Translations under genes and position numbers: made by a program
Notes under the pieces: generated by a model
Databases searched by the model: none
The model's input: only the letters and a program-made list of their open reading frames with translations
Told to the model about the DNA's origin: nothing
Assembly (NCBI GenBank): GCA_032718475.1
Contig: JAUCBJ010007946.1
Location: 43,152-107,151 of the forward strand
Length of the DNA: 64,000 nt
Direction: 5' to 3'
Origin: Nemertoderma westbladi
Taxonomy: Eukaryota; Animalia; Xenacoelomorpha
Shown here: piece by piece, positions 1 through 62,154 of the stretch
How the letters are laid out: every line of letters starts with the position of its first letter
How positions within the stretch are numbered: position 1 is the first letter of the stretch

Positions 1-302
1 ATGAGATATTAATTTCAAGAAAAATTACGCGATTCCTAAATTTGTACACTACCCGGTTATAAAGTACGCATGTGATGGGATTAGTCCTACAATTGCGCCA
101 ATAAAAGATAAGTTATTTTCGGTAAAATAAACTTATCATTCGAGGTTAAGACCCCTAGATCCCTTCCTGTAATAAATGTATCATAACAAACACCTCGAAA
201 AAATACAGCTTGCCAAAACCTTGTTACTATCAATAATAAAAATCAGGGGCTAATAAAATGGCAGCTGGCTTTGAAATTAATACTCCATATCTCAAGAACC
301 TG

Positions 303-355
303 TGGCCTAGTGGTTGTTGTCTCGGCTTCCACCTCGAGGTCCTAGGTTCGAATCC
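303..355 (+). promoter_or_regulatory. Internal RNA Pol III type-2 promoter (A box 303-313, B box 345-355), repeated in each unit
   Basis: TGGCCTAGTGG fits the TRGCNNARYGG consensus and GGTTCGAATCC is a perfect B box, at tRNA-like spacing. Confidence 0.78.
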
Positions 356-358
356 GAC

Positions 359-401
359 ACCACGCTGATGAGACCCAGTAAGGTCGAAACGCGTACGTGG
401 T
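359..401 (+). ncRNA. Type I hammerhead ribozyme (minimal stem III), copy 1
   Basis: Stem I ACCACG/CGTGGT, CTGATGA core, stem II GACC-cagtaa-GGTC, GAAA, palindromic ACGCGT stem III, predicted cleavage after GUA (395). Confidence 0.9.
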
Positions 402-770
402 TTGGAGAGATATGAGATATTAATTTCAAGAAAAATTACGCGATTCCTAAATTTGTACACTACCCGGTTATAAAGTACGCATGTGATGGGATTAGTCCTA
501 CAATTGCGCCAATAAAAGATAAGTTATTTTCGGTAAAATAAACTTATCATTCGAGGTTAAGACCCCTAGATCCCTTCCTGTAATAAATGTATCATAACAA
601 ACACCTCGAAAAAAATACAGCTTGCCAAAACCTTGTTACTATCAATAATAAAAATCAGGGGCTAATAAAATGGCAGCTGGCTTTGAAATTAATACTCCAT
701 ATCTCAAGAACCTGTGGCCTAGTGGTTGTTGTCTCGGCTTCCACCTCGAGGTCCTAGGTTCGAATCCGAC

Positions 771-813
771 ACCACGCTGATGAGACCCAGTAAGGTCGAA
801 ACGCGTACGTGGT
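771..813 (+). ncRNA. Type I hammerhead ribozyme, copy 2
   Basis: Identical to 359-401. Confidence 0.9.
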
Positions 814-1182
814 TTGGAGAGATATGAGATATTAATTTCAAGAAAAATTACGCGATTCCTAAATTTGTACACTACCCGGTTATAAAGTACGCATGTGATG
901 GGATTAGTCCTACAATTGCGCCAATAAAAGATAAGTTATTTTCGGTAAAATAAACTTATCATTCGAGGTTAAGACCCCTAGATCCCTTCCTGTAATAAAT
1001 GTATCATAACAAACACCTCGAAAAAAATACAGCTTGCCAAAACCTTGTTACTATCAATAATAAAAATCAGGGGCTAATAAAATGGCAGCTGGCTTTGAAA
1101 TTAATACTCCATATCTCAAGAACCTGTGGCCTAGTGGTTGTTGTCTCGGCTTCCACCTCGAGGTCCTAGGTTCGAATCCGAC

Positions 1183-1225
1183 ACCACGCTGATGAGACCC
1201 AGTAAGGTCGAAACGCGTACGTGGT
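1183..1225 (+). ncRNA. Type I hammerhead ribozyme, copy 3
   Basis: Identical to 359-401. Confidence 0.9.
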
Positions 1226-1595
1226 TTGGAGAGATATGAGATATTAATTTCAAGAAAAATTACGCGATTCCTAAATTTGTACACTACCCGGTTATAAAGT
1301 ACGCATGTGATGGGATTAGTCCTACAATTGCGCCAATAAAATATAAGTTATTTTCGGTAAAATAAACTTATCATTCGAGGTTAAGACCCCTAGATCCCTT
1401 CCTGTAATAAATGTATCATAACAAACACCTCGAAAAAAATACAGCTTGCCAAAACCTTGTTACTATCACATAATAAAAATCAGGGGCTAATAAAATGGCA
1501 GCTGGCTTTGAAATTAATACTCCATATCTCAAGAACCTGTGGCCTAGTGGTTGTTGTCTCGGCTTCCACCTCGAGGTCCTAGGTTCGAATCCGAC

Positions 1596-1638
1596 ACCAC
1601 GCTGATGAGACCCAGTAAGGTCGAAACGCGTACGTGGT
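1596..1638 (+). ncRNA. Type I hammerhead ribozyme, copy 4
   Basis: Identical to 359-401. Confidence 0.9.
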
Positions 1639-2097
1639 TTGGAGAGATATGAGATATTAATTTCAAGAAAAATTACGCGATTCCTAAATTTGTACACTAC
1701 CCGGTTATAAAGTACGCATGTGATGGGATTAGTCCTACAATTGCGCCAATAAAAGATAAGTTATTTTCGGTAAAATAAACTTATCATTCGAGGTTAAGAC
1801 CCCTAGATCCCTTCCTGTAATAAATGTATCATAACAAACACCTCGAAAAAAATACAGCTTGCCAAAACCTTGTTACTATCAATACTTAGAATTACTGACA
1901 TCGTCACTTGACATAGGCAAGCAAGGTGACTCGCCTACATTATGTAACAATAGGAATCATATTGATCACTATGGAGCCAGGCGTAGAGTGACCTAGATAC
2001 ACATTGTTAGACCACTTAGCTTATACATATTGCTAACTGTATTATGTTGATGTTCTAATATTGTTCGAGATTATTTATTACGTCGTTTCTGTTGCAG

Positions 2098-4755: not shown

Positions 4756-4980
4756 GTGCCGTCAACCCATTCACTCGGAGCCAACAGAGACGGAGACCCA
4801 CTAAATGCACTCTATTTTGCATCCGTTTCCGGAAACACGAGAAAAGCTTCCGGTTCTTCCTGAAACATGTTATTAAATCCCAGGCATTCTATTGGACTAT
4901 TATTGTCCTTGTCTTTCTCAATACGATATTTGTCGCAATAGAACATTACGACCAACCAGAGTGGTTGACAAAATTCCTAG
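4756..4980 (+). CDS. Cav2: Cav2 exon, end of I-II linker and IIS1 ([48 protein letters not shown])
   Basis: ttccag acceptor, gtatgt donor; classic IIS1 motif. Confidence 0.92.
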
Positions 4981-5104
4981 GTATGTGTTTCAATGGTTTC
5001 GATAATACCTAATTCCCTTTAGTGTTGAAGTAGCCCATTAGTGAAAATGTTTAAATAAATATTTTCATATTACCATTTGTACCTGTATCATGTATTCTAA
5101 TTGA

Positions 5105-5272
5105 ATAGACATTACTACCCATTTATCGACCAATCAATGATGAAAGCTTTAGTTAGGCTAGGCTGGAGTATTTATTGTGCTGTGCCCAACAGTGCTGCCA
5201 CATGTAGGGATCGAACAAGGGCCTCGTGATTGGATACCCAGAAATCTTTAAACCAAGCTGCTGCTTCCCTTA
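5105..5272 (-). mobile_element. Degenerate tRNA-derived SINE fragment
   Basis: Minus-strand B box GTTCGATCCC (5207-5216) and A-box-like AGCTTGGTT (about 5251-5259) at tRNA spacing; boundaries approximate. Confidence 0.45.
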
Positions 5273-6372
5273 TCCCTGATTTAGCGAGCGATGTTGACAT
5301 TATTTTCTCTCGGGCCTTTATTTGCCTCTCTTAAATAAGTTATTTATTTAATATGCAATAAAAGATGGCTAATTTGTTTATTACGTTGGAAAAAAGTCGC
5401 GTTTTTTTAATGGCTACCGCGAGATTTATGATTTGAAAACAAGTGCGAGCGTAGCGAACAAGGAGTGATTCCATATTATATAATCCCTTACCGATAATGA
5501 TCCAACAGAAACCTGAATTCTAGAACGCCGCCAAGGGGTGACAAACAACTCGGCATGACGAAACAAGGAGAGGAAGTAACGTAATTTAGAACTATTGCAT
5601 ATTACTATTACGTCATATACTATTACGTCATATACTATTACATATGGTAGAAATTACATGAAAGAATAATTCCCATATCACCAAATAGTAACTGAACCCA
5701 TATGTTATATGATGTAAACTTTCCACAGCGAACGATAACTAACAAAATTAATTCTACATCAAAGGGTTTCTTATGAGACATTATCGAAATGTTTTCATAT
5801 AATAAGAAATGTTATTCATCTTCATACGACCTAAATGGGCGGCGGGAAATAAAGCTAATTAAACATGTAGGCCTAATAAACATTATTCATTCTTTTTCAT
5901 TATAACTCTTATTCGTAATCATCAGTAAATAACTTGCATGGCTCCTTCTAATTATCGTCCAATAACTTCACATAATTTATGAGACCCTACAGACTTTATA
6001 TAAATTTTATTGGTTTAAGTTTTCAAAGTTCTGTAATGATTAATTTTCTTCCAACAATAATTATTCATAAATACAATAATTGATTCTAGATTCATACTAT
6101 ACTTATATATTCATACTATACTTATCAATATGGAACGTGCACTAAATAATTGTTTGTGAAAAAATGTTGTACATGAATCTCCAACGATATCCCCCTTATA
6201 TCGTGTTAAAATCCTAACAGATTTGCACCAGGTGAAAGAACTTATACAGATATAACTAGGGACAAGTAAAGTATGTTGATCTCGGAAAGCGCAATATATT
6301 AAAATATATTAATAAGTTTTGTTTTTTCAATTCTAGCGAATGTTAATGATGTATTACTTTTTATCATTATAG

Positions 6373-6485
6373 AAGTCACAGAATTCGTTTTCTTGGGTCT
6401 ATTTATATCTGAGATTTTACTGAAACTTTATGCCCTTCGACCCAAATTCTACTTCAGGAGTAACTTCAACATATTCGACTGTGTG
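6373..6485 (+). CDS. Cav2: Cav2 exon, IIS2-S3 ([38 protein letters not shown])
   Basis: ttatag acceptor, gtaagt donor; translated by hand, not in the ORF track. Confidence 0.9.
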
Positions 6486-6660
6486 GTAAGTTTCTTTATG
6501 CGACTTACTACATTACTTCCAGTTTATTGTTAGAATTTGAATTATCAATTTAATTGTAAAATTATAATTTGACCCATAACTGTATTTTTATTTTTTTCTT
6601 TATTTTCATATTATTATTTTTCAAGGTGTAAGTTACATTCTCATATTGTATTACTTTTAG

Positions 6661-6770
6661 GTTATCATTGGAAGTGTAATTGACATGATAATGTACAACG
6701 TTAATGGCACTCGCATAGGAATTCGGGTACTGAGGGCGCTGAGATTGCTACGAATATTCAAAGTCACCAA
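6661..6770 (+). CDS. Cav2: Cav2 exon, IIS3-S4 voltage sensor (VIIGSV...GIRVLRALRLLRIFKVTK)
   Basis: ttttag acceptor, gtgcgt donor; R-x-x S4 repeat. Confidence 0.92.
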
Positions 6771-6903
6771 GTGCGTTACATACTTCCGTAATATAAAAGG
6801 AAATATTGTGAACAATAACGTCACAACACAACGCATAACACTATGTAATAACGGGGATTTTTTGTTACTTTTATTTTAACATTTTATTCTAATTTGTTTA
6901 TAG

Positions 6904-7035
6904 GTATTGGAAATCGTTAAGGAATTTAGTCGTCTCGTTGCTCAACTCAATACGCGCTATATTATCTCTGCTGTTTCTTCTCTTTCTTTTCATCGTAATA
7001 TTCGCTCTACTGGGGATGCAGATATTTGGAGGGAG
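6904..7035 (+). CDS. Cav2: Cav2 exon, IIS4-S5 linker and IIS5 ([44 protein letters not shown])
   Basis: tatag acceptor, GGGAG|gttggt donor, phase matches the exon at 10876. Confidence 0.92.
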
Positions 7036-9486
7036 GTTGGTTTCATTATATTTGGAGGGAGGTTGGTTTCATTATATTTGGAGGGAGGTTGGTTTCATTA
7101 TATTTGGAGGGAGGTTGGTTTCATTATATTTGGAGGGAGGTTGGTTTCATTATATTTGGAGGGAGGTTGGTTTCATTATATTTGGAGGGAGGTTGGTTTC
7201 ATTATATTTGGAGGGAGGTTGGTTTCATTATATTTGGAGGGAGGTTGGTTTCATTATATTTGGAGGGAGGTTGGTTTCATTATATTGGGAGGGAGGTTGG
7301 TTTCATTATATTGGGAGGGAGGTTGGTTTCATTATATTTGGAGGGAGGTTGGTTTCATTGTATTTGGAGGGAGGTTGGTTTCATTATATTGGGAGGGAGG
7401 TTGGTTTCATTATATTGGGAGGGGGGTTGGTTTCATTATATTTGGAGGGAGGTTGGTTTCATTATATTTGGAGGGAGGTTGGTTTCATTATATTGGGAGG
7501 GAGGTTGGTTTCATTATATTTGGAGGGAGGTTGGTTTCATTATATTTGGAGGGAGGTTGGTTTCATTATATTTGGAGGGAGGTTGGTTTCATTATATTGG
7601 GAGGGAGGTTGGTTTCATTATATTTGGAGGGAGGTTGGTTTCATTATATTGGGAGGGAGGTTGGTTTCATTATATTTGGAGGGAGGTTGGTTTCATTATA
7701 TTTGGAGGGAGGTTGGTTTCATTATATTTGGAGGGAGGTTGGTTTCATTATATTTGGAGGGAGGTTGGTTTCATTATATTTGGAGGGAGGTTGGTTTCAT
7801 TATATTGGGAGGGAGGTTGGTTTCATTATATTGGGAGGGAGGTTGGTTTCATTATATTGGGAGGGAGGTTGGTTTCATTATATTGGGAGGGAGGTTGGTT
7901 TCATTATATTTGGAGGGAGGTTGGTTTCATTATATTGGGAGGGAGGTTGGTTTCATTATATTTGGAGGGAGGTTGGTTTCATTATATTTGGAGGGAGGTT
8001 GGTTTCATTATATTTGGAGGGAGGTTGGTTTCATTATATTTGGAGGGAGGTTGGTTTCATTATATTGGGAGGGAGGTTGGTTTCATTATATTGGGAGGGA
8101 GGTTGGTTTCATTATATTGGGAGGGAGGTTGGTTTCATTATATTGGGAGGGAGGTTGGTTTCATTATATTTGGAGGGAGGTTGGTTTCATTATATTTGGA
8201 GGGAGGTTGGTTTCATTATATTGGGAGGGAGGTTGGTTTCATTATATTTGGAGGGAGGTTGGTTTCATTATATTGGGAGGGAGGTTGGTTTCATTATATT
8301 TGGAGGGAGGTTGGTTTCATTATATTTGGAGGGAGGTTGGTTTCATTATATTGGGAGGGAGGTTGGTTTCATTATATTGGGAGGGAGGTTGGTTTCATTA
8401 TATTTGGAAGGGGGTTGGTTTCATTATATTTGGAGGGAGGTTGGTTTCATTATATTTGGAGGGAGGTTGGTTTCATTATATTTGGAGGGAGGTTGGTTTC
8501 ATTATATTGGGAGGGAGGTTGGTTTCATTATATTTGGAGGGAGGTTGGTTTCATTATATTTGGAGGGAGGTTGGTTTCATTGTATTTGGAGGGAGGTTGG
8601 TTTCATTGTATTTGGAGGGAGGTTGGTTTCATTATATTTGGAGGGAGGTTGGTTTCATTATATTTGGAGGGAGGTTGGTTTCATTATATTTGGAGGGAGG
8701 TTGGTTTCATTATATTTGGAGGGAGGTTGGTTTCATTATATTTGGAGGGAGGTTGGTTTCATTATATTTGGAGGGAGGTTGGTTTCATTATATTGGGAGG
8801 GAGGTTGGTTTCATTATATTTGGAGGGAGGTTGGTTTCATTATATTTGGAGGGAGGTTGGTTTCATTATATTTGGAGGGAGGTTGGTTTCATTATATTTG
8901 GAGGGAGGTTGGTTTCATTATATTTGGAGGGAGGTTGGTTTCATTATATTTGGAGGGAGGTTGGTTTCATTATATTTGGAGGGAGGTTGGTTTCATTATA
9001 TTTGGAGGGAGGTTGGTTTCATTATATTTGGAGGGAGGTTGGTTTCATTATATTTGGAGGGAGGTTGGTTTCATTATATTTGGAGGGAGGTTGGTTTCAT
9101 TATATTTGGAGGGAGGTTGGTTTCATTATATTTGGAGGGAGGTTGGTTTCATTATATTTGGAGGGAGGTTGGTTTCATTATATTTGGAGGGAGGTTGGTT
9201 TCATTATATTTGGAGGGAGGTTGGTTTCATTATATTTGGAGGGAGGTTGGTTTCATTATATTTGGAGGGAGGTTGGTTTCATTATATTTGGAGGGAGGTT
9301 GGTTTCATTATATTTGGAGGGAGGTTGGTTTCATTATATTTGGAGGGAGGTTGGTTTCATTATATTTGGAGGGAGGTTGGTTTCATTATATTTGGAGGGA
9401 GGTTGGTTTCATTATATTTGGAGGGAGGTTGGTTTCATTATATTTGGAGGGAGGTTGGTTTCATTATATTTGGAGGGAGGTTGGTT
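7022..9486 (+). repeat. 26-bp minisatellite (about 95 copies): ATATTTGGAGGGAG|GTTGGTTTCATT, last 14 exon nt plus first 12 intron nt
   Basis: Direct periodicity; one further unit resumes at 10089-10120 after an insertion. Confidence 0.96.
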
Positions 9487-10088
9487 TGTGAGCGGATTCA
9501 ATTCCGCCGCATTACCCTCACAAAGTTGGGAAGTGGCACCTTTTCAGCAATATTGGAGATACGAGATTGGCAATAACCAATCTCGTATCACAACCAACAC
9601 CGGGGACAACACAACCCCAAAGCCACACACAAAGGGAGGTTAGAGGTCAAATCACCTCGGGAGAGGGAACAACCAGCAGGGGCCAACAGCAGGGGGGAAA
9701 CACTCACAGAGAGGGGAGAGGCGTGAAGTAGATTATCAGCCAATAGGGGCGAGGGAGAGCATCCACTGGGTGAAAGGCCACAGCAGTGTAGGAGTAATAA
9801 TCACATATATATTATGTTGCATTCAATTACCGGTTCAGTTATTTCAGTCATCAGCTTGAGTGCAGACCGGTGACATCCTTCACCGTCACCGTCACCAATA
9901 TATCCACACCTACCGGTATACAATACTGTTATTTTACTGCCATCAACTGTGCTATCATTCATTATCCGTTTATTGATATTAATTACCGAGCATCAAAGAG
10001 ATAACAACGAACTCTTATTTTTCCCATTCTCAATACCACGGTGACGCGTAGTCTGATTAACCGGTCGGGATCCCTTGATCCCGTCACA
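9487..10088. mobile_element. Probable solo LTR (602 bp) inserted in the 26-bp array
   Basis: TGTGA...TCACA termini, 5-bp TSD TGGTT (9482-9486 and 10089-10093), higher GC than flanks, no long ORF of its own. Confidence 0.75.
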
Positions 10089-10875
10089 TGGTTTCATTAT
10101 ATTTGGAGGGAGGTTGGTTGGGAAGATGTGCGGTACATAGAATTGGAGCGCATCCCAGATGTTTTTGTGCCTGTATCTGCAGATAGTTGATTATTAGTAT
10201 TTAACTACCCCAACTGTGTTAACAGATGAAGCCAATTCGGCCGCCCATAAACAATTAATTATTAGTCGGCTTCAATGTAATTTTTCGAACATTCAAGGAG
10301 ATTATGTAAATCTCCATCATATTACTCCAATGCTAAGTTTCCATTCTTTCCATTGATAAGAAAATGAAAAATTTGTTGATGTTGACCAATGAGAAGAAAG
10401 AGTGAAATAGACAGACATAGAGATATATAGATAGGTAGTTATATACATACATATACCCCCATGATATACATATTTTCGATATTTCATATACATAAATCAT
10501 TTTGGGATCATGTTTCCCACATAACATGCTTGCTTTGAACGAACCTGCCAATTTACTCTTTCAATGTATACCAATTCAATTATTGTTCTAGGGTAGGGGT
10601 TACAAGCAAGGATCATCAGTCATTCCTGCAGGGTGAGGTTGGGTTTTGGCAATAAGATGTTACGGGTTGTGCAAGTTAGGCCTAATTTGTTAAATGAACA
10701 TGTATCTAATGTAATATGTACCCTGCGTGGCTACCTGGTGTAAATACTGTCAATCAAGCGATCTGATACAATATTCATAGCTTGACAACTGAGAAAAAAA
10801 ATTAGCATTATAGTATACCTTTAAGTATAGGTTTTCGTTATATAATAATGTAATTGTATATGGTAAATTTTTTAG

Positions 10876-11066
10876 GTTTAACTTTCCCGGCGGAAAACCC
10901 TCCGCTAACTTTGATACTTGGTCAATAGCAATGCTAACAGTCTTCCAGATTCTCACTGGTGAGGATTGGAACGCTGTGATGTACAACGGAATATACAGTC
11001 TGTCTAGTGGGGGGAAGGCCTGGAGCATGCTTGCTTCTGTGTACTTCATTCTTCTATGCCTGATAG
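10876..11066 (+). CDS. Cav2: Cav2 exon, domain II pore loop and start of IIS6 ([39 protein letters not shown])
   Basis: ttttag acceptor, gtgagt donor; TGEDWN filter motif. Confidence 0.93.
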
Positions 11067-11330
11067 GTGAGTAAGCGCAGCTCTCCGTTTAGTATAAACG
11101 TCACTTTTGAACTTCTCCATCCGTCAGTCTGTTGGCCGTCCCACCAGATGAGTACGAGGATGGCATCGATATAAAGCTTTGGTGGTGGGTTGTTATTTGT
11201 TCTGTTGGTAATTTGTTAATTATAATTTATACCCAGGAACTGGTGAAAAATGACTAGTGCAATTCAATTAGTTAAATTACTAAATATATGTATTTATTCA
11301 TTATATAATATTTATTAATGTGTTTTGCAG

Positions 11331-11452
11331 GAAATTACACGTTATTAAACGTATTTTTGGCCATCGCTGTCGATAACTTAGCTAGCGCACAGCAACTTAC
11401 GAAGGCAGAGGAAAGAGAAGAATTGGAAAAACAACTTAAAAACAATATTCAG
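11331..11452 (+). CDS. Cav2: Cav2 exon, IIS6 ([24 protein letters not shown]...)
   Basis: ttgcag acceptor, CAG|gttcag donor. Confidence 0.9.
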
Positions 11453-11644
11453 GTTCAGTTCACCTTATCTATAAACCTTGACCTACCGTACATCCTGCTG
11501 CTCTTGTTCATTTGCTTGGACATCCCATTTGACTCCCAGACTGTTTAAGTGTAGTACAATGCTGCCGGCCTTACTGCCTGAATAAAAGGGGGGGGGGGGG
11601 GGGGGGGGGGGGGGTCCGGTGGAGTACAGTTCTACCGGTTTATG

Positions 11645-13265
11645 GTCAACACTTCGAAAGACCATGTCAACACTTCGAAAAGGATTTGATGTGGTTAGGG
11701 TAGGTTATAGAATTAGTATATGGCAGTAAGAATATAAGGACAACTTATTATATAAGTTTCTTAGTAATAAGGAATAATATTGCGAAATATATGAATTACT
11801 TTGGTACTATCATTTCATATAATAGATTTTCGTTACCGGTGAAGAAACTGCTTGATTTGTTTCTGCCCTAAATCGTTGAACTCTGCCATCTCAGCCTGTT
11901 GACGTGTATCCCGAATTAATTAAACGCCACTAATTGAATGCCACCCCAAATCAGATGATTTAACACCAAAATAAATTATTTTGCACCAAATATATATTTT
12001 TTTGTAGCACCAATTCGCATCCCCCAAATTTGAATATCCTTCTCACCAAAAACAATTATTCGTCCCCCAAAAACAATTATTCATCCCCCAAAAACAATTA
12101 TTGATTCCCCAAAAACAATTATTCATCCCCCAAAAATAATTACTTGTCAACCTAAAAAAATTATTCCAGCACCAAATATTTTATATTAACTACGCTTTGG
12201 TCAGTTGCCATGCTTCAGTTACAGTATTCGTATCGATAGGCCTATTGCCTATCTATTATTGCCTATGGCGTATTACTTATTCTGTTATTAGGTTTCAGTA
12301 TTACGGCAGTACTGAAGTTTTCAGATAGGGGGGGAAACTGGACGCAAAAAAAATTCATCCTTCTCCAGAGGAAATTCGACGCAAGTAACAGCTGATTCTT
12401 CTCAAAAATAAAACTGTAACCTGTTCTATTGTGTTTAGTTTATTGTTAAAATAACGTGCCACTGTAACCTGCTCCTTTCCCTAAATTGAGAATTTAACAT
12501 TGAGGCGGGATATTAATTCGCCAAGGCGGGTTTTGCGTCCAATTTCCCCTCCTGTCTCGAAGTTTATATCTAAATTCCAGTATTTATTTTGGGGGATTAT
12601 GTATTTATTTTGGGCAAAAATGTATTTGTTTTGGGGGAAAATGTATTTTTATTTTGGGGGATAATGTATTTGTTTTGGGGGGGAATGTATTTGTTTTGGG
12701 CGAAAATGTATTTGTTTTGGGGGAAAATGTATTCGTTTTGGGGGAAAATGTATTTGTTTTGGTTGAAAATCTATTTGTTTTGGGGGAAAATGTATTTATT
12801 TTGGGCGAAAATATATTTGTTTTGGGAAAATTTTTAATTATTTGGGGGATTTGTCATTTATTTTGGTGCTAATAATTGGTTTTGGGGAGCATTTATTTAT
12901 TTTGGTATTGAATAATTTGTTTTTGGTGTTGAAAAATTTGTTTTGGTGTTTGAATAATTTATTTGGGGTGACTTTATTTTACAATCATTATTTGTCACAT
13001 TATTTAATTTGGTGGCATATTCGGTTTACACCGAATGGGGGTGTATATAATAATATTTATTCATTATTTAATTTGGTGTAAAATAATTTTTTTGGTGATA
13101 TTCTCATCAATTTTGAGATAACTTTAATTGGTAGCCTTAATTAAATTGTAACTAAAATAAATACGAAATTTTGTTTTCGTTTTTATTATTATTTCATTAT
13201 TATTTTTATGTGGTAACAGTGGCACTAAATTATTTTCGAAGTGTTGACTATTTCGAAGAGTTGAC
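11645..13265. mobile_element. Nested non-autonomous inverted-repeat elements (outer doubled GTCAACACTTCGAAA inverted repeat; foldback-like middle element about 11912-13147; inner MITE about 12322-12558)
   Basis: Three concentric pairs of inverted repeats; middle arms built of about 21-bp CCCCAAAAACAATTATT / AATGTATTTGTTTTGGGG subrepeats. Confidence 0.6.
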
Positions 13266-14448
13266 GCGGAATCATGCTGCCTACAAGCTACTGATTGCTG
13301 TATGATGCCTGCCTGTATTATTTTGTAATGTAAGCTGGCTTTGCTTGGTGTAACCCCGAGTTTCAAAATATTACCCAATCTAATATAGCACAATATGTAA
13401 ATAAATAACAAACAACATTAACTCACTATCTATAAATGCCTTTCTAATGTAAATTTGGTATGTAATTTTTTCTTACAAAGTTGTTACATCAGTAACAACT
13501 AAGAAAGTCTACACGTATGAATTTTTAACATTATGAATTGCTTCTATGATAGTGGAGATCAATTATTCATTAACTTACCTTGAATAACATGAAGTTAAAC
13601 TGTTAACAGACATGACGTATTTTAGCACGTTAAAACATATATATATTCTCATTTTTGGAAATATATGTTAAATGTTTATGATCAATATGACATCATTGGC
13701 AATAATAATTATTTATTACTTGGGAAAAAAGAGTACAACTTTTTTTTCATTATTCTTGAGGCATTTTATTTACCGAGCGCCTGGGAGGTTAATAAATGGT
13801 CGAGAGAATATTGAAAAAATAATATTCTGCGTTTTTTTATTTTTTAAACTTTTTTAAATTTTTAAATTTTAATTTTTAAATTTTTAAACGTAATTTTATT
13901 CTTAAATTGGTACTATTTTGTTGCTCAATTCTTTAATAAAAGATAGTGCAAATATTTATTACGAAAACTAAAAGAGCCGCTTAACTACACAAACCAATAT
14001 TGGATATTGAGTTCCGTTTTGAAGTACGCTTTGCAGACACTAAAATTGCAATAAATTCTGAGTGTGTGAAGGGATTTTGCTTAAATTACGTGGAAACCTT
14101 TTCTACTTCGATGCTCTTTAAACACATGCAATATAATTCAAGAGATTCCACCAAAAATATTTTAACTTACTTTTTTCGCCGGGAAAAATCCAATTGATAA
14201 CTTTTTTTATCTTGGGAAAAAGTACTTTTTCTCCCGATTTGATGTATATTCGAGCGAAAAAGTAACAATTTAAGATTAAAATTACTATTTTTAATATTCT
14301 ATTAATTAATAATTTGGAAGGGTTTACTGTGGAAGATCACCCATGGTGGTGAACAGGCATTCCTTGGCTTAACGAGCCTAAAAGATTCTCCCATTCATTA
14401 ATTTATTTTGCCCACTTGCGGACGTTATTGTTATATTTTACTTTATAG

Positions 14449-14807
14449 AATGCCTCTCCAATTCCATCCAAGGCACCTAGTCCAAAATTTATACACCCAG
14501 AAAAGGTGAAGACCACCAATCAATTATCAGTGCCAGATGAGAAACCACACGGGGTATTCAACGAAGCTTATCTCGACAACGAAGGTAGCCACCACCAACA
14601 ACACAATCCCTCAGAGCCGTATAGCGTGTCTTTCAGACTGGACAATAAATCATTGGAGGCTGATGGTGTGCCTACGACGCCCCCCAAGATAAGTAGACTG
14701 GACAAAATGAAAGGCATCACAGATGAAGATAACCCCGGTGATGACGACGATGGCCCCGTACCTATACTCCCTTATACATCTCTATTTATTTTGAGCTCCA
14801 CAAACAA
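14449..14807 (+). CDS. Cav2: Cav2 exon, II-III linker ending GPVPILPYTSLFILSSTN
   Basis: ttatag acceptor, gtaaga donor; conserved pre-IIIS1 motif. Confidence 0.87.
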
Positions 14808-14985
14808 GTAAGATGCATAGCAACATCTAAGCCGCAGTTGTTACTAGTTTTTTTTACAGTTATTGTATTATTTTTTACGACGATTAAACAACCTCGAAAT
14901 GAGAACAGATGTCATGTTCGTTTACAGATGTTTGAGAGTGGTTGTTTGCGGGAATAATAATCGAACATTTTAATGCGACCACAGA

Positions 14986-16051
14986 AGATTTATATGATCA
15001 CTGAGATTTTATATAATCACTGATATTTTATAGGATCACTGATATTTTATAGGGATCACCGATATTTTATAGGATCACTGATATTTTATAGGATCACTGT
15101 TATTTTATAGGATCACTGATATTTTATAGGATCACTGATATTTTATAGGATCACTGATATTTTATAGGATCACTGATATTTTATAGGATCACTTATATAT
15201 TATAGGATCACTGATATTTTATAGGATCACTGATATTTTATAGGATCACTGATATTTTATAGGATCACTGATATTTTATATGATCACTGATATTTTATAG
15301 GATCACTGATATTTTATAGGATCACTGATATTTTATAGGATCACTGATATTTTATAGGATCACTGATATTTTATAGGATCACTGATATTTTATAGGATCA
15401 CTGATATTTTATAGGATCACTGATATTTTATAGGATCACTGATATTTTATAGGATCACTGATATTTTATAGGATCACTGATATTTTATAGGATCACTGAT
15501 ATTTTATAGGATCACTGATAATTTATAGGATCACTGATATTTTATAGGATCACTGATATTTTATAGGATCACTGATATTTTATAGGATCACTGATAATTT
15601 ATAGGATCACTGATATTTTATAGGATCACTGATATTTTATAGGATCACTGATATTTTATAGGATCACTGATATTTTATAGGATCACTGATATTTTATAGG
15701 ATCACTGATATTTTATAGGATCACTTATATATTATAGGATCACTGATATTTTATAGGATCACTTATATATTATAGGATCACTGATATTTTATAGGATCAC
15801 TGATATTTTATAGGATCACTGATATTTTATAGGATCACTGATATTTTATAGGATCACTGATATTTTATATGATCACTGATATTTTATAGGATCACTGATA
15901 TTTTATAGGATCACTGATATTTTATAGGATCACTGATATTTTATAGGATCACTGATATTTTATAGGATCACTGACATTTTATAGGTTCACTGATATTTTA
16001 TAGGATCACTGATATTTTATAGGATCACTGATATTTTATAGGATTACTGAT
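14986..16051 (+). repeat. 19-bp minisatellite (about 55 copies) GATCACTGATATTTTATAG
   Basis: Direct periodicity. Confidence 0.95.
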
Positions 16052-16135
16052 AGTACGATGGTAAAATTAGTAACATTTCATACGATCATTAATATTTCAT
16101 ACCATTTTATTAATATTTTATGTGATTATTTGCAG

Positions 16136-16265
16136 GATTCGCATTGGAGCCCATTATATTGTAAATATGCGACACTTTGAGAACGTAATTCTTTCTCTTA
16201 TAATTCTGAGCAGTATCTCATTGGCGTTGGAAAGTCCTATTTATGTTAATGGTGATTTGAACAAT
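16136..16265 (+). CDS. Cav2: Cav2 exon, IIIS1 (IRIGAHYIVNMRHFENVILSLIILSSISLALESP)
   Basis: ttgcag acceptor, gtgagt donor. Confidence 0.92.
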
Positions 16266-16465
16266 GTGAGTGAAAAAAGTTCCTGCCTTATTTTGTAACT
16301 ATATTGATGACTATTACTATTGTATTTACTATTTAAGTGATGAACGAATTGAATTACTTCGTAAAATTTGAAAGGGCGAATATATATTTTTTAATTTATT
16401 CGCTAAAATTCACTATTATAATAAAACCGTTAAGATAGCTGTAAAAACATTCATTATGTTTTTAG

Positions 16466-16525
16466 GTGATTCAAAAATTAGACTATGGTTTTACTGCTGT
16501 TTTCCTGATGGAGTTTTGTTTAAAG
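16466..16525 (+). CDS. Cav2: Cav2 exon, IIIS2 (VIQKLDYGFTAVFLMEFCLK)
   Basis: ttttag acceptor, gtaagt donor; 60 nt, phase 0/0. Confidence 0.9.
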
Positions 16526-16809
16526 GTAAGTAAATTTCAAGTGTGTAGTGGCGAATAGTAAGGGGGGGGGGGGGGGGGGACCAAAACAATCGACTTGTGT
16601 TAGAAATAGTGAAAGGAAACTAATTCCATTATTAAGCATTATTGTTGAATCAGAAACATTTCGATCCGACCCAATTGTTAGAACTTGTCATTTCATTCAT
16701 TTTATTGTCTAGTTCGGTAGGGTTTCGGTCAAGACAATATTGTTAAATATAGACAATAATATTAAAGTTGTTGTTTACTTATTTTTGCTACATTATATTT
16801 CCCGTTCAG

Positions 16810-16919
16810 GTAACAGACTTGGGATTGGTTTTGCATCCTGGTGCTTATTTTCGTGACGGATGGAATATAATTGACGCGGTCGCTTGTATTTGCGCTACAA
16901 TCAGTGTAATACTACAATT
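16810..16919 (+). CDS. Cav2: Cav2 exon, IIIS2-S3 (VTDLGLVLHPGAYFRDGWNIIDAV)
   Basis: ttcag acceptor, gtaaga donor. Confidence 0.92.
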
Positions 16920-17185
16920 GTAAGACTTTATTTCTATTGTAAAACATATTTAATTGAAACAAAAATACATTTAATATTTAATACAACTGTCAATTTAAGA
17001 TTGTTACCTAAGAAATAATGAGTTAAACAAAATGTAAGGTTGTTTTAATTAATTATAAGTTGAGTTACAATAATGTAAGGTTGTTTCAAAAAGTAAAGCT
17101 TCAGTAATGTAATGATTGTTTCCATTAAATATAATGTTAAGCTACAATAATGTAGGTTGTTACTAAATCTAATTTGTTTCCAAAG

Positions 17186-17282
17186 GACGGACGTTGGTGG
17201 TAGCGCAGGTGGAATTAGATCTTTGCGGGTTTTAAGAGTTCTTCGGCCACTGAAAACGATTAAACGGGTTCCCAAACTAAAG
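17186..17282 (+). CDS. Cav2: Cav2 exon, IIIS4 voltage sensor ([23 protein letters not shown])
   Basis: caaag acceptor, AAG|gttggt donor; continues in frame into AVFDCVV at 60077. Confidence 0.92.
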
Positions 17283-20200
17283 GTTGGTTATTATTTACGG
17301 GTTCCCAAACTAAAGGTTAGTTATTATTTACGGGTTCCCAAACTAAAGTTTAGTTATTATTTACGGGTTCCCAAACTAAAGGTGGGTTATTATTTACGGG
17401 TTCCCAAACTAAAGTTTGGTTATTATTTACGGGTTCCCAAACTAAAGGTTAGTTATTATTTACGGGTTCCCAAACTAAAGGTTAGTTATTATTTACGGGT
17501 TCCCAAACTAAAGGTGGGTTATTATTTACGGGTTCCCAAACTAAAGGTTAGTTATTATTTACGGGTTCCCAAACTAAAGTTTGGTTATTATATTTACGGG
17601 TTCCCAAACTAAGGGTTGGTTATTATTTACGGATTCCCAAACTAAAGGTTAGTTATTATTTACGGGTTCCCAAACTAAAGGTTGGTTATTATTTACGGGT
17701 TCCCAAACTAAAGTTTAGTTATTCTTTACGGGTTCCCAAACTAAAGGTTGGTTATTATTTACGGGTTCCCAAACTAAAGTTTGGTTATTATTTACGGGTT
17801 CCCAAACTAAGGGTTGGTTATTATTTACGGGTTCCCAAACTAAAGGTTGGTTATTATTTACGGGTTCCCAAACTAAAGTTTAGTTATTCTTTACGGGTTC
17901 CCAAACTAAAGGTTGGTTATTATTTACGGGTTCCCAAACTAAAGTTTGGTTATTATTTACGGGTTCCCAAACTAAGGGTTGGTTATTATTTACGGGTTCC
18001 CAAACTAAAGGTTGGTTATTATTTACGGGTTCCCAAACTAAGGTTTAGTTATTATTTACGGGTTCCCAAACTAAAGGTTAGTTATTATTTACGGGTTCCC
18101 AAACTAAAGTTTGGTTATTATTTACGGGTTCCCAAACTAAAGGTTGGTTATTATATTTACGGGTTCCCAAACTAAAGGTTGGTTATTATTTACGGGTTCC
18201 CAAACTAAAGTTTAGTTATTATTTACGGGTTCCCAAACTAAAGGTTGGTTATTATATTTACGGGTTCCCAAACTAAAGGTTGGTTATTATTTACGGGTTC
18301 CCAAACTAAAGTTTGGTTATTATTTACGGGTTCCCAAACTAAAGGTTGGTTATTATTTACGGGTTCCCAAACTAAAGGTGGGTTATTATTTACGGGTTCC
18401 CAAACTAAAGTATAGTTATTATTTACGGGTTCCCAAACTAAAGGTTGGTTATTATATTTACGGGTTCCCAAACTAAAGGTGGGTTATTATTTACGGGTTC
18501 CCAAACTAAAGTATAGTTATTATTTACGGGTTCCCAAACTAAAGGTTGGTTATTATTTACGGGTTCCCAAACTAAAGGTTAGTTATTATTTACGGGTTCC
18601 CAAACTAAAGTTTGGTTATTATATTTACGGGTTCCCAAACTAAAGTTTGGTTATTATTTACGGGTTCCCAAACTAAAGGTTAGTTATTATTTACGGGTTC
18701 CCAAACTAAAGGTTAGTTATTATTTACGGGTTCCCAAACTAAAGGTTGGTTATTATTTACGGGTTCCCAAACTAAAGGTTAGTTATTATTTACGGGTTCC
18801 CAAACTAAAGTTTGGTTATTATATTTACGGGTTCCCAAACTAAAGGTTAGTTATTATATTTACGGGTTCCCAAACTAAAGTTTAGTTATTATTTACGGGT
18901 TCCCAAACTAAAGGTTGGTTATTATTTACGGGTTCCCAAACTAAAGGTTGGTTATTATTTACGGGTTCCCAAACTAAAGGTTGGTTATTATTTACGGGTT
19001 CCCAAACTAAAGGTTGGTTATTATATTTACGGGTTCCCAAACTAAAGGTTAGTTATTATATTTACGGGTTCCCAAACTAAAGTTTAGTTATTATTTACGG
19101 GTTCCCAAACTAAAGGTTGGTTATTATTTACGGGTTCCCAAACTAAAGGTTGGTTATTATTTACGGGTTCCCAAACTAAAGGTTGGTTATTATTTACGGG
19201 TTCCCAAACTAAAGGTTGGTTATTATATTTACGGGTTCCCAAACTAAAGGTTGGTTATTATTTACGGGTTCCCAAACTAAAGGTTGGTTATTATTTACGG
19301 GTTCCCAAACTAAAGGTTGGTTATTATTTACGGGTTCCCAAACTAAAGGTTGGTTATTATTTACGGGTTCCCAAACTAAAGGTTAGTTATTATTTACGGG
19401 TTCCCAAACTAAAGGTTGGTTATTATTTACGGGTTCCCAAACTAAATGTTAGTTATTATTTACGGGTTCCCAAACTAAAGGTTGGTTATTATTTACGGGT
19501 TCCTAAACTAAAGGTGGGTTATTATTTACGGATTCCCAAACTAAAGGTTGGTTATTATTTACGGGTTCCCAAACTAAAGGTTGGTTATTATATTTACGGG
19601 TTCCCAAACTAAAGGTTGGTTATTATTTACGGGTTCCCAAACTAAAGGTTAGTTATTATATTTACGGGTTCCCAAACTAAAGGTTGGTTATTATTTACGG
19701 GTTCCCAAACTAAAGGTTGGTTATTATATTTACGGGTTCCCAAACTAAAGGTTGGTTATTATTTACGGGTTCCCAAACTAAAGTTTGGTTATTATATTTA
19801 CGGGTTCCCAAACTAAAGGTTGGTTATTATTTACGGGTTCCCAAACTAAAGGTTGGTTATTATTTACGGGTTCCCAAACTAAAGGTTGGTTATTATTTAC
19901 GGGTTCCCAAACTAAAGGTTAGTTATTATTTACGGGTTCCCAAACTAAAGTTTAGTTATTATATTTACGGGTTCCCAAACTAAAGGTTAGTTATTATTTA
20001 CGGGTTCCCAAACTAAAGGTTAGTTATTATTTACGGGTTCCCAAACTAAAGGTTAGTTATTATTTACGGGTTCCCAAACTAAAGGTTAGTTATTATTTAC
20101 GGGTTCCCAAACTAAAGGTTGGTTATTATTTTCGGATTCCCAAACTAAAGGTTAGTTATTATTTACGGGTTCCCAAACTAAAGTATAGTTATTATTTACG

Positions 20201-22055
20201 GGTTCCCAAACTAAAGGTTAGTTATTATTTACGGGTTCCCAAACTAAAGTATAGTTATTATTTACGGGTTCCCAAACTAAAGGTTAGTTATTATTTACGG
20301 GTTCCCAAACTAAAGGTTGGTTATTATTTACGGGTTCCCAAACTAAAGGTGGGTTATTATTTACGGGTTCCCAAACTAAAGTATAGTTATTATTTACGGG
20401 TTCCCAAACTAAAGGTTGGTTATTATATTTACGGGTTCCCAAACTAAAGGTGGGTTATTATTTACGGGTTCCCAAACTAAAGTATAGTTATTATTTACGG
20501 GTTCCCAAACTAAAGGTTGGTTATTATTTACGGGTTCCCAAACTAAAGTTTGGTTATTATTTACGGATTCCCAAACTAAAGGTTAGTTATTATTTACGGG
20601 TTCCCAAACTAAAGTTTGGTTATTATATTTACGGGTTCCCAAACTAAAGTTTGGTTATTATTTACGGGTTCCCAAACTAAAGGTTAGTTATTATTTACGG
20701 GTTCCTAAACTAAAGGTGGGTTATTATTTACGGATTCCCAAACTAAAGGTTGGTTATTATTTACGGGTTCCCAAACTAAAGGTTGGTTATTATATTTACG
20801 GGTTCCCAAACTAAAGGTTGGTTATTATTTACGGGTTCCCAAACTAAAGGTTAGTTATTATATTTACGGGTTCCCAAACTAAAGGTTGGTTATTATTTAC
20901 GGGTTCCCAAACTAAAGGTTGGTTATTATATTTACGGGTTCCCAAACTAAAGGTTGGTTATTATTTACGGGTTCCCAAACTAAAGTTTGGTTATTATATT
21001 TACGGGTTCCCAAACTAAAGGTTGGTTATTATTTACGGGTTCCCAAACTAAAGGTTGGTTATTATTTACGGGTTCCCAAACTAAAGGTTGGTTATTATTT
21101 ACGGGTTCCCAAACTAAAGGTTGGTTATTATTTACGGGTTCCCAAACTAAAGGTTAGTTATTATTTACGGGTTCCCAAACTAAAGTTTAGTTATTATATT
21201 TACGGGTTCCCAAACTAAAGGTTAGTTATTATTTACGGGTTCCCAAACTAAAGGTTAGTTATTATTTACGGGTTCCCAAACTAAAGGTTAGTTATTATTT
21301 ACGGGTTCCCAAACTAAAGGTTAGTTATTATTTACGGGTTCCCAAACTAAAGGTTGGTTATTATTTACGGGTTCCCAAACTAAAGGTTAGTTATTATTTA
21401 CGGGTTCCCAAACTAAAGTTTAGTTATTATATTTACGGGTTCCCAAACTAAAGGTTAGTTATTATATTTACGGGTTCCCAAACTAAAGGTTAGTTATTAT
21501 TTACGGGTTCCCAAACTAAAGGTTAGTTATTATTTACGGGTTCCCAAACTAAGGTTTGGTTATTATATTTACGGGTTCCCAAACTAAAGGTTGGTTATTA
21601 TTTACGGGTTCCCAAACTAAAGGTTAGTTATTATTTACGGGTTCCCAAACTAAAGGTTAGTTATTATTTACGGGTTCCTAAACTAAAGGTTAGTTATTAT
21701 TTACGGGTTCCCAAACTAAAGGTTGGTTATTATATTTACGGGTTCCCAAACTAAAGGTTAGTTATTATTTACGGGTTCCCAAACTAAAGTTTGGTTATTA
21801 TTTACGGGTTCCCAAACTAAAGGTTGGTTATTATTTACGAGTTCCCAAACTAAAGGTTGGTTATTATTTACTTATTGATAGTAACAATGTGTTGGCAAGC
21901 TGTATTTTTCGAGGTGTTTGTTATTATAGATTTATTATAGGAAGGGCTAATATAATGGCAGCTGGCTTTGAAATTAATACTCCATATCTCAAGAACCTGT
22001 GGCCTAGTGGTTGTAGTCTCGGCTTCCACCTCGAGGTCCCAGGTTCGAATCCGAC

Positions 22056-22098
22056 ACCACGCTGATGAGACCCAGTAAGGTCGAAACGCGTACGTGGT
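22056..22098 (+). ncRNA. Type I hammerhead ribozyme, copy 5
   Basis: Core and stems identical to 359-401. Confidence 0.9.
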
Positions 22099-22425
22099 TT
22101 GGAGAGATATGAGATATTAATTTCAAGAAAAATTACGCGATTCTTAAATTTGTACACTACCCGGTTAAAAAGTACGCATGTGATTGGATTAGTCCTAAAA
22201 TTGCGCCAATAAAAGATAAGCTATTTTCGGTAAAATAAACTTATCATTCGAGGTAAAGACCCCTAGATCCCTTCCTATAATAACATTGTTACTATCAATA
22301 ATCAAAAACTCAGGGGCTAATATAATGGCAGCTGGCTTTGAAATTAATACTCCATATCTCAAGAACCTGTGGCCTAGTGGTTGTAGTCTCGGCTTCCACC
22401 TCGAGGTCCCAGGTTCGAATCCGAC

Positions 22426-22468
22426 ACCACGCTGATGAGACCCAGTAAGGTCGAAACGCGTACGTGGT
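22426..22468 (+). ncRNA. Type I hammerhead ribozyme, copy 6
   Basis: Core and stems identical to 359-401; 370 bp from copy 5. Confidence 0.9.
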
Positions 22469-59419: not shown

Positions 59420-60076
59420 CGGCAATTAAACCGTTTCTAATCTTCAAAAAGATCTAAAGAAAATCTTCTAATCTTTTTCAAAATATGTTAGGCCTACTTT
59501 ACTACTTGTCGCTTCTTTCATTAATTTATTTTTATTTATATATATATATTATATTATATATTTTATTTTAATTTATAATAATTTTAATTTAATTTATAAT
59601 AATAATAATTTATTAATTTAATTAATTAATTTTCTGGAAGCTAAATTCCCTCTCCTCTCCGTCGCACTATTGAAACCAGTCGCTATTTTAATGTTGTCCA
59701 ACATTATTGTGCAATTATATTCCTTTTGTCTTTTTCATCTGGCCTATTACAGTATTATGTTAATACTAATTTAGTTTAATAAAAGTATCCCTTATCCTTC
59801 TTAAATTTAAAATCTAGCTGGCGCAAGGCAATTCAGTTTTCAAGTACTATTCAATTTTCAAGTTATACTTATGATTATTTATATTTATTTATACCCGTAC
59901 TGTATTTGCTGTTTCTATAATTTGAACTGTGTTACCGGTATTACTTTGTTATAGAATCTGTGTCAATTTCATTAATTTGAATGTCAAATTAAACGTACCA
60001 ACTAATTTAAAAGTTAAATTAAATCTATAATAATTTTTCTCATCGATCCATATGAATTGTACAAATTGTATTTCAG

Positions 60077-60237
60077 GCTGTGTTTGATTGCGTTGTTGAA
60101 GCTGTTAGAAATGTTTCCAATATATTGGTTGTCTACTTACTATTTCATTTTATATTTTCCGTGATCGGCGTTCAACTTTTCCAAGGAAAATTCTTCTATT
60201 GCACAGATTCAACACAATTAACAAAGGAGACTTGCCA
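60077..60237 (+). CDS. Cav2: Cav2 exon, IIIS5 ([44 protein letters not shown])
   Basis: tttcag acceptor, gtaagt donor. Confidence 0.93.
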
Positions 60238-62100: not shown

Positions 62101-62154
62101 GTTAGCAACTCCTGCAATATAATTTAATTATGTTTCGCATTTAATTCAAAATTA

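What the first reader, a model, noticed from the sequence alone, without database searches (positions are those of the whole stretch)
1..1884. tRNA-headed hammerhead retroelement: Pol III promoter fused to a self-cleaving ribozyme in tandem 412-bp units
Seen: each unit has an A box (303-313) and a B box (345-355), followed 3 nt later by a complete type I hammerhead (ACCACG-CTGATGA-GACC/GGTC-GAAA-CGCGTA-CGTGGT). The core is invariant in all six copies, while flanks differ between the two loci. Established: tandem few-hundred-nt repeats with type I hammerheads are the architecture of metazoan non-LTR retrozymes, newt satellite 2 and Schistosoma Sm-alpha; their multimeric transcripts self-cleave to monomers that can circularise. 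Inference: this is a mobile non-coding SINE/retrozyme hybrid with its own promoter, spreading through a self-cleaving, possibly circular RNA with a borrowed (perhaps Penelope-like) reverse transcriptase. Whether this family is already described cannot be judged from the sequence.
Basis: partly seen in the sequence, partly recalled or inferred. Interest (0 to 1): 0.9.

Follow-up and report, generated by a model that had tools for sequence, protein, structure and literature searches.

The report
Jumping repeat with self-cutting RNA motif
An animal genome carries many copies of a 412-base non-coding repeat in which a tRNA-like promoter motif sits just before a hammerhead ribozyme motif, a design already known from blood flukes; its insertion scars suggest it likely still jumps with a borrowed Penelope-type reverse transcriptase, while self-cleavage, promoter use and RNA circles are predicted but untested.

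Summary
In detail: 4.6 tandem 412-bp units, each with A box, B box and a canonical type I hammerhead; 0 of 3000 shuffles give either motif set. Six copies lie at two loci, in introns of a Cav2-type channel gene of an unplaced animal. The design (Pol III promoter directly before a hammerhead, in tandem) is that of Schistosoma Sm-alpha/Sj-alpha and of metazoan non-LTR retrozymes, so it is not new. The tools add evidence of mobility. The second locus (21873-22655) sits in a satellite with an 11-12 bp target duplication and a 75-bp inverted copy at its 5' side. Over a thousand contigs in each of two DNA runs match the unit. One sample lacks the element at the 1884/1885 junction. Copies tend to end at two internal sites 59 nt apart, not at the ribozyme cut and without poly(A). 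That is the tail-plus-inverted-copy signature of Penelope-like elements. No RNA, cleavage, circle or partner RT was shown. A T4 run lies between promoter and next ribozyme. Verdict: new, apparently active member of a known kind; interest 0.4.

The parts
1..1884 (+). Locus 1: tandem array of 412-bp units (4.6 copies in the window; left end outside). 3' end at 1884 = unit site 2
   Evidence: junction held by X3 contig 16, absent from X1 contig 8
296..358 (+). Degenerate tRNA-like head; folds as one hairpin 296-349 rather than a cloverleaf
   Evidence: ARAGORN relaxed 300-366, score 86.6; no call at default
303..313 (+). A box of a type 2 Pol III promoter (also 715, 1127, 1540, 22000, 22370)
   Evidence: consensus recalled
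345..355 (+). B box (also 757, 1169, 1582, 22042, 22412)
   Evidence: consensus recalled
359..401 (+). Type I hammerhead motif, stems 6/4/2 bp, palindromic stem III, predicted cut after 395 (also after 807, 1219, 1632, 22092, 22462)
402..430 (+). Predicted extension of stem I: pairs with 682-705 and 765-769 of the next unit's upstream part, closing a monomer or circle into a rod
   Evidence: z -5.0 linear, -4.4 circular; 0 of 100 shuffles as stable
527..530 (+). Only T4 run of the unit's sense strand: possible Pol III terminator between promoter and next ribozyme
   Evidence: PMC5356446 passages
589..647 (+). 59-nt A/C-rich 'tail' between the two preferred 3' ends (site 1 = 588, 1412; site 2 = 647, 1884); inferred reverse-transcription start sites
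21861..21872 (+). Left copy of the 11-12 bp AT-rich target-site duplication
21873..21946 (-). Locus 2: inverted, 5'-truncated copy (unit 572-648, ends at site 2); 3-nt overlap with the start of the direct part
21944..22655 (+). Locus 2: direct, 5'-truncated partial tandem with two heads and two ribozymes 370 bp apart (44-nt deletion, 2-nt insertion); ends at site 1
22656..22667 (+). Right copy of the target-site duplication; the 33-bp satellite resumes in register
4782..62109 (+). Host context: exons of a Cav2-type voltage-gated calcium channel alpha-1 gene; locus 2 is intronic, locus 1 likely so; both in sense orientation

Best explanation
This is a non-coding, high-copy, tandem repeat with a tRNA-like promoter motif and a type I hammerhead motif in every unit (an Sm-alpha-type non-LTR retrozyme) that has inserted at new sites, likely through RNA copied by a Penelope-like reverse transcriptase borrowed from an autonomous element. 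Steps: (1) inferred, about 0.65: Pol III starts near 296 from the internal A/B boxes and has to read through the T4 at 527-530; Pol II read-through from host introns can also supply RNA. (2) Predicted, about 0.85: the hammerhead cuts after 395, probably best as a dimer through the palindromic stem III; the cut leaves the promoter at the 3' end of each 412-nt monomer, so only tandem copies stay self-expressing. (3) Predicted, about 0.55: monomers are ligated to rod-like circles by a host tRNA ligase. (4) Shown at DNA level: insertions have an AT-rich target duplication, truncated 5' ends, 3' ends at two internal sites 59 nt apart and an inverted tail copy. Inferred, about 0.65: a Penelope-like protein nicks both target strands and primes cDNA internally on an uncut multimer or a circle, one strand from site 1 and the other from site 2. 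(5) Inferred: long homogeneous arrays such as locus 1 come from multimer copying, later unequal exchange, or both.
For: Motifs far beyond chance. Stem lengths 6/4/2 with a palindromic stem III match the canonical metazoan type I hammerhead (PMC4209133 passages). No ORF over 56 codons in a dimer. Locus 2: 11-12 bp duplication with the satellite back in register, 75-bp inverted copy, 5'-truncated partial tandem. 3148 and 1186 contigs of DNA runs X1 and X3 lay on 1300-2248, of which 289 and 276 only partly. Of 14 loose-end rows shown (446 in all), the 4 with 7 or more contigs and mixed flanks (agreement 0.46-0.50) are all 3' ends, at 1411 (7), 1416 (9) and 1884 (16, 12); none shown is at the cut (1632). 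5 of 15 joint rows shown (85 in all) join antisense tail to sense body, 2 of them in both X1 and X3. X1 contig 8 lays on 1885-2248 and goes on for 286 nt that do not lay on the unit, whereas X3 contig 16 holds the junction. Inverted 5'-truncated copy, partial tandems and a tail are hallmarks of Penelope-like insertions (PMC8557442 passages); a Penelope-like protein cuts and extends both strands of AT-rich DNA and starts at two internal RNA sites that define the tail (PMC11167929). In 3 contigs of a diverged relative (X7), the 3 listed A-box changes fall on degenerate positions, 8 fall in the spacer, none is listed in the B box or ribozyme.
Against: No cleavage, circle, Pol III occupancy or partner RT was observed, and no Penelope-like element sharing the unit was found (no genome held). 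The tail is 59 nt against 30-40 nt in described elements. Site 2 coincides with the edge of the repeat in both laid queries, X1's loose ends there are short (median 25 nt) and begin like the unit's own continuation, so some may be run-ons; only site 1 is free of that bias. The tables show only the best-supported rows (14 of 446; 15 of 85), joints have short sides (23-30 nt) at 85% likeness, and the 286 nt of the empty allele were not displayed. Four T suffice for Pol III termination in humans, though read-through is common; T4 is not depleted beyond chance (P=0.49). A 2020 review states that metazoan retrozymes seem to lack promoters (PMC7761336). Only 1 of 9 Xenopus retrozyme dimers cleaved in vitro (bioRxiv 10.64898/2026.07.22.740005). 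The 370-nt unit folds less distinctively (z -2.4, 2 of 100 shuffles). The inverted copy at locus 2 keeps 44 nt that the neighbouring unit lacks, which a single uniform circle would not give without an RT jump.
Confidence: 0.7

Rival explanations
1. Same retrozyme, but the tRNA head is a relic or structural part; RNA comes from Pol II read-through (as for newt satellite 2), here from host introns.
For: Both loci are in sense orientation within or just upstream of matched Cav2 exons; the head is not a proper cloverleaf; a T4 lies 231 nt after the predicted start; newt transcripts are Pol II products; reviews see no promoter in metazoan retrozymes.
Against: Both boxes and their spacing match consensus in 6 of 6 copies, 0 of 3000 shuffles; box-sparing divergence in X7; Sm-alpha precedent.
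Confidence: 0.15
2. An ordinary tRNA-derived SINE with a captured hammerhead, moved by a LINE (L1- or RTE-type); the inversion is twin priming (recalled mechanism).
For: A/B-box head; an 11-12 bp AT-rich duplication and a 5' inversion with a 3-nt overlap are also produced by LINE priming (recalled); LINEs are named as possible partners (PMC7229834 passage).
Against: No poly(A) or simple-repeat tail at either 3' end in the window; locus 2 does not begin at the head; two 3' sites 59 nt apart; recurrent inverted-tail joints.
Confidence: 0.1
3. A satellite DNA spread at DNA level (unequal exchange, extrachromosomal circles captured at breaks); the ribozyme is a passenger from an old Penelope-like terminal repeat.
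For: The window is satellite-rich; locus 1 units are 99.5-100% identical; local amplification from Penelope-like termini is proposed in bioRxiv 10.64898/2026.07.22.740005.
Against: Target duplication, strand-polar ends (fixed 3', variable 5'), repeated inverted-tail joints, intact core in 6 of 6 copies.
Confidence: 0.05

Closest known systems
Sm-alpha / Sj-alpha SINE-like hammerhead retroposons of Schistosoma (PMC6765202, PMC2770079, PMC8490949 passages; Ferbeyre 1998 not held)
   Same: [quoted passage not shown]
   Different: Different host (Cav2 exon at most 74% identical to the 120 listed relatives, fluke included); 412 bp against 335 bp for the Sm-alpha-like W36.2; Sm-alpha head is tRNA-Gln-like, here the parent tRNA is unassigned (Gly/Trp-like loop). 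Sequence homology to Sm-alpha was not tested. Activity is shown there, not here.
Metazoan non-LTR retrozymes (coral, mussel, axolotl; PMC7229834 section 13 and passages; bioRxiv 10.64898/2026.07.22.740005 parts 1 and 3 of 5)
   Same: 150-450 bp tandem units, one type I hammerhead each, GC below 50%, no LTR/ORF, duplications longer than 4 bp, self-paired predicted monomer, Penelope-like elements proposed as partner.
   Different: Carries a tRNA-type promoter motif, which those papers do not report (0 occurrences of tRNA, Pol III or promoter in the preprint's main text; 'no promoters' in PMC7761336). Circles not shown here. Copies here are intronic, while Xenopus copies avoid introns.
Penelope-like elements and their non-autonomous derivatives, e.g. 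MRC1 (PMC8557442 passages, PMC11167929 passages and part of the main text)
   Same: 5' truncation, partial tandems, inverted 5'-truncated copy, tail between two 3' ends, AT-rich target, type I hammerhead.
   Different: No RT or GIY-YIG ORF; canonical rather than minimal hammerhead; tRNA-type promoter; 59-nt rather than 30-40-nt tail; no shared pLTR sequence shown.

Membership tests
Metazoan non-LTR retrozyme | Tandem units of 150-450 bp, each with a complete type I hammerhead | tested here: met
   412- and 370-bp units, 6 of 6 cores intact
Metazoan non-LTR retrozyme | No ORF, no LTR structure, GC below 50% | tested here: met
   longest ATG ORF 56 codons; 162 of 412 bases G or C; PBS/PPT not searched separately
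Metazoan non-LTR retrozyme | Dispersed copies with target duplications longer than 4 bp | tested here: met
   11-12 bp at locus 2, the only locus with both ends visible (1 of 1); many junction contigs
Metazoan non-LTR retrozyme | Highly self-paired monomer/circle | tested here: met
   prediction only: z -4.4, 0 of 100 shuffles for the 412-nt circle; z -2.4, 2 of 100 for the 370-nt circle
Metazoan non-LTR retrozyme | Self-cleavage of the RNA | not testable with these tools
   motif only
Metazoan non-LTR retrozyme | Unit-length linear and circular RNA in vivo | not testable with these tools
   only contigs were available; contigs cannot show RNA ends or circles
Sm-alpha-type tRNA-promoter hammerhead SINE (as a design) | A and B boxes at tRNA spacing immediately 5' of the hammerhead | tested here: met
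   31-nt spacing, 3 nt to stem I, 6 of 6 copies
Sm-alpha-type tRNA-promoter hammerhead SINE (as a design) | Head derived from a tRNA | tested here: inconclusive
   only a relaxed ARAGORN call (86.6; 1 of 300 shuffles at 85%), no Rfam tRNA hit
Sm-alpha-type tRNA-promoter hammerhead SINE (as a design) | Transcription by Pol III | not testable with these tools
   a T4 at 527-530 must be read through
Sm-alpha / Sj-alpha (the sequence family itself) | Sequence homology to Sm-alpha | not tested
   no Sm-alpha sequence came from a tool; no Repbase/Dfam on hand
Classical LINE-driven tRNA SINE | Monomeric copy from head to poly(A) or simple-repeat tail | tested here: not met
   both visible 3' ends are internal unit positions without such a tail; locus 2 starts upstream of the head after an inverted piece
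Non-autonomous Penelope-like derivative | 5' truncation, partial tandem, inverted 5' copy, tail between two 3' ends | tested here: met
   locus 2 anatomy; loose ends and joints (partial tables); tail 59 nt rather than 30-40
Non-autonomous Penelope-like derivative | Shares pLTR/3' sequence with an autonomous element of the same genome | not testable with these tools
   no genome held; no RT-like ORF noticed among ORFs of 120+ codons in the window

The most novel reading that the evidence does not exclude
A currently active Pol III 'SINE' moved by a Penelope-like protein rather than a LINE: its insertions record priming of both target strands from two fixed internal RNA sites (588 and 647 of the unit), independent of the ribozyme cut. 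It would give junction-level proof of which enzyme moves animal retrozymes, map the cis signal that Penelope proteins read to about 100 nt (550-650), and supply a compact promoter-ribozyme-circle-insertion cassette.
Probability: 0.45. Interest if true: 0.6.

Novelty: new member of a known kind. Interest (0 to 1): 0.4.

Why it matters
The design is known, but two points are open in the papers read: which reverse transcriptase moves animal retrozymes (Penelope-like elements are argued from co-occurrence and pLTR homology) and where their transcription comes from. A young, presence/absence-polymorphic family with its own promoter motif and Penelope-type insertion scars lets both be tested from junction sequences alone. 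It also places six predicted self-cleaving motifs in sense orientation within a calcium-channel pre-mRNA, which may affect its processing.

Tried and rejected
Whole-genome copy and junction analysis: no genome held. Expression: no RNA holder listed. X4 is only guessed to be RNA; its single 441-nt contig (depth 13.8) equals one unit plus assembly overlap, which a trace of tandem DNA would also give, so it is not used. Summed contig depth over the unit is about four orders above the unique flank but the tool says it is no copy number; not used as one. Relatives in public collections: a B-box-plus-hammerhead pattern gave 2 hits in metagenome contigs, both rejected as chance (L001 lies in a bacterial-looking coding region, L002 at the end of a bacterial-looking tRNA; neither is repeated in tandem); the family core gave 0 hits in genome contigs and 0 in viral contigs. 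Rfam mir-7386 and Yar_1 matches (E 1.3, 4.4) are chance. Terminator avoidance as evidence for Pol III: T4 count not below chance (P=0.49). Core invariance between the two loci as evidence for selection: p=0.23 for the ribozyme alone; p=0.02 for a 102-nt stretch chosen after seeing the data. Host placement: one 53-aa exon gave 169 hits, best 72-74% identical (flies, rotifer, fluke), so only 'animal, Cav2-type gene'. The joint 21866-22693 may be satellite-to-satellite and is not taken as the empty site of locus 2. First translations of the exon were out of frame (correct). PMC10886601 and PMC5680766 passages added nothing decisive. Earlier findings by sequence and by place: none. Literature searches listed no paper describing a Penelope-type tail or inverted copy at retrozyme or SINE junctions (0 papers held SINE + hammerhead ribozyme + tRNA-derived + B box); subscription papers, Repbase/Dfam and the preprint's supplements were not seen, so this is no proof of absence.

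Full report
Observation. The window opens inside a tandem array, 1-1884, of period 412 with 4.6 copies at 99% identity. Each unit has an A box (303-313), a B box 31 nt further (345-355) and, 3 nt on, a type I hammerhead motif: stem I of 6 bp, the conserved core, stem II of 4 bp with a 6-nt loop, and stem III of 2 bp within a 6-nt palindrome; the predicted cut follows 395. The 33-nt core occurs six times in the window and in 0 of 100 shuffles: four copies here and two at 22058 and 22428. In 3000 dinucleotide shuffles of a unit the hammerhead descriptor and the spaced box pair each occurred 0 times (the consensus expressions are recalled). Rfam gives nothing at gathering score and a sub-threshold hammerhead match at E about 1e-4. 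These stem lengths are those of the canonical metazoan type I ribozyme, which often needs a dimer (PMC4209133 passages). The tRNA is degenerate: 0 genes at default, a relaxed score of 86.6 with 1 of 300 shuffles called at that level, and the head folds as a hairpin. The invariance of the core between loci is weak evidence because only 12 substitutions separate them. A dimer has no ORF above 56 codons.

Context. The window holds exons of a Cav2-type calcium channel gene on the + strand (tblastn hits 4782-62109; one exon is at most 74% identical to the 120 of 169 relatives listed), so the host is an animal that I could not place. Locus 2 is intronic; locus 1 lies upstream of the first matched exon, which starts at residue 411 of the fly protein, so it is likely intronic too.

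Locus 2 is an insertion. It interrupts a 33-bp satellite; 11-12 AT-rich bases are duplicated (21861-21872, 22656-22667) and the satellite resumes in register. Inside are a 75-bp inverted copy of unit positions 572-648, then with a 3-nt overlap a direct part that starts at unit position 659, runs through two heads and two ribozymes 370 bp apart and stops at unit position 588. Locus 1 stops at unit position 647, the point at which the inverted copy ends. Neither end is the ribozyme cut and neither has a poly(A) tail.

The family beyond the window. No genome is held, but 7 of 10 listed runs hold part of the unit. On 1300-2248, 3148 contigs of X1 and 1186 of X3 were laid, 289 and 276 only partly. 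Of 14 loose-end rows shown out of 446, four have 7 or more contigs with mixed flanks; all are 3' ends, at 1411 (X1, 7 contigs, median 171 nt), 1416 (X3, 9, 255 nt) and 1884 (16 and 12). These equal unit sites 588-592 and 647. The first is inside the query's repeat and so unbiased; the second is the query's own edge, and X1's ends there are short (25 nt), so some may be run-ons. No shown row lies at the cut; 432 rows were not shown. On locus 2, 5 of 15 joint rows shown (85 in all) link antisense tail to sense body at other positions, two of them in both X1 and X3; the sides are only 23-30 nt. X3 contig 16 spans the 1884/1885 junction, whereas X1 contig 8 lays on 1885-2248 and continues for 286 nt that do not lay on the unit (orientation read from X4 contig 17). 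I read this as an empty allele and hence recent mobility; the 286 nt were not displayed. Three low-depth contigs of X7 show a diverged relative: 3 listed changes in the A box, all at degenerate positions, 8 in the spacer, none listed in the B box or ribozyme, which fits selection on the promoter boxes but rests on three contigs.

Mechanism. Shown: the anatomy, the duplication, the inversion, the abundance and, with the caveats above, two preferred 3' ends. Inferred: Pol III starts near 296; the only T4 of the sense strand (527-530) could stop it, since four T suffice in humans although read-through is common (PMC5356446 passages), and both 3' sites and the next ribozyme lie beyond it. Predicted: cleavage releases 412-nt monomers whose two ends pair into a long stem (396-430 with 682-705 and 765-776; z -5.0 linear, -4.4 circular, 0 of 100 shuffles), suited to ligation by a tRNA ligase as in coral, mussel and axolotl (PMC7229834 passages and section 13); the 370-nt variant scores lower (z -2.4). 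Inferred: integration uses an uncut multimer or circle, since locus 2 spans two cut sites and ends internally. Partial tandems, an inverted 5'-truncated copy and a tail are the described marks of Penelope-like insertions (PMC8557442 passages), and the anole Poseidon protein cuts and extends both strands of AT-rich DNA, starting at two internal sites in A/C-rich RNA that define the tail, without needing ribozyme cleavage (PMC11167929 passages and first part of the main text). Locus 2 fits one strand primed at site 588 and the other at site 647. Against: the tail is 59 nt rather than 30-40, LINE twin priming also yields inversions with duplications (recalled), no partner was found, and the inverted copy keeps 44 nt missing from the adjacent unit, which one uniform circle would not give without a jump.

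Comparison. Schistosoma Sm-alpha elements are described as a promoter followed by a hammerhead, in tandem, transcribed by Pol III, with the promoter left at the 3' end of cleaved monomers (PMC6765202 passages), related to tRNA-Gln (PMC2770079 passages), about 335 bp (PMC8490949 passages); the original paper was not held. The unit meets every sequence-level criterion of metazoan non-LTR retrozymes that I could test. Penelope-like elements are already proposed as their partner from co-occurrence and pLTR homology (bioRxiv 10.64898/2026.07.22.740005, parts 1 and 3 of 5; supplements not seen), and that preprint found cleavage in only 1 of 9 dimers. A 2020 review says metazoan retrozymes seem to lack promoters (PMC7761336 passages), so the head is unusual among them but not unprecedented. 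An earlier AI note from another genome reports a similar design (e1-9924037); it is a lead only. My searches listed no paper on Penelope-type junction marks in retrozymes or SINEs, but Repbase, Dfam and most subscription papers were out of reach, so whether this family is already named is open.

Verdict. Observation confirmed; interpretation supported but not new in design. A new, apparently active member of the Sm-alpha-type non-LTR retrozymes, confidence 0.7 for the full mechanism. Its added value is junction evidence on the mobilising enzyme. Interest 0.4; most novel reading (a Pol III SINE moved by a Penelope-like protein from two internal start sites) probability 0.45, interest 0.6 if true.

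Noticed in passing
window 2249-4626, 7022-9487, 17264-54188: Three of the window's five long satellites (49, 26 and 33 bp units) start inside the 3' end of a Cav2 exon (the first exon inferred, the other two matched by tblastn) and repeat the exon end plus its 5' splice site 48, 95 and about 1120 times. The 33-bp unit is an open 11-codon frame, so use of a later donor would add in-frame repeats. The 19- and 59-bp satellites do not start at exons.
   Followed up: partly
window 1-1884 and 21873-22655: All six hammerhead motifs lie on the sense strand of the channel gene, so the pre-mRNA could be cut inside introns.
   Followed up: no
window about 17283-60076: A 43-kb intron made almost wholly of the 33-bp and 59-bp satellites splits the channel's coding sequence between tblastn hits at 17190-17315 and 60071-60277.
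   Followed up: no
window 22270-22313: The middle unit of locus 2 lacks 44 nt of the tail that the inverted copy of the same insertion keeps: a mixed template, two RNAs or an RT jump.
   Followed up: partly
run X5, contig 20 (1831 nt, depth 401), laid on window 22387-22495: A decayed head-plus-ribozyme piece with changes in the catalytic core sits in a high-depth contig, probably carried inside another repeat.
   Followed up: no
run X7, contigs 18-20, laid on window 1510-1655: A diverged relative (12-13 differences in 96 nt of the head, 2 in 80 nt over the ribozyme) with unlike sequence on both sides: the head-plus-ribozyme module occurs with another body.
   Followed up: partly
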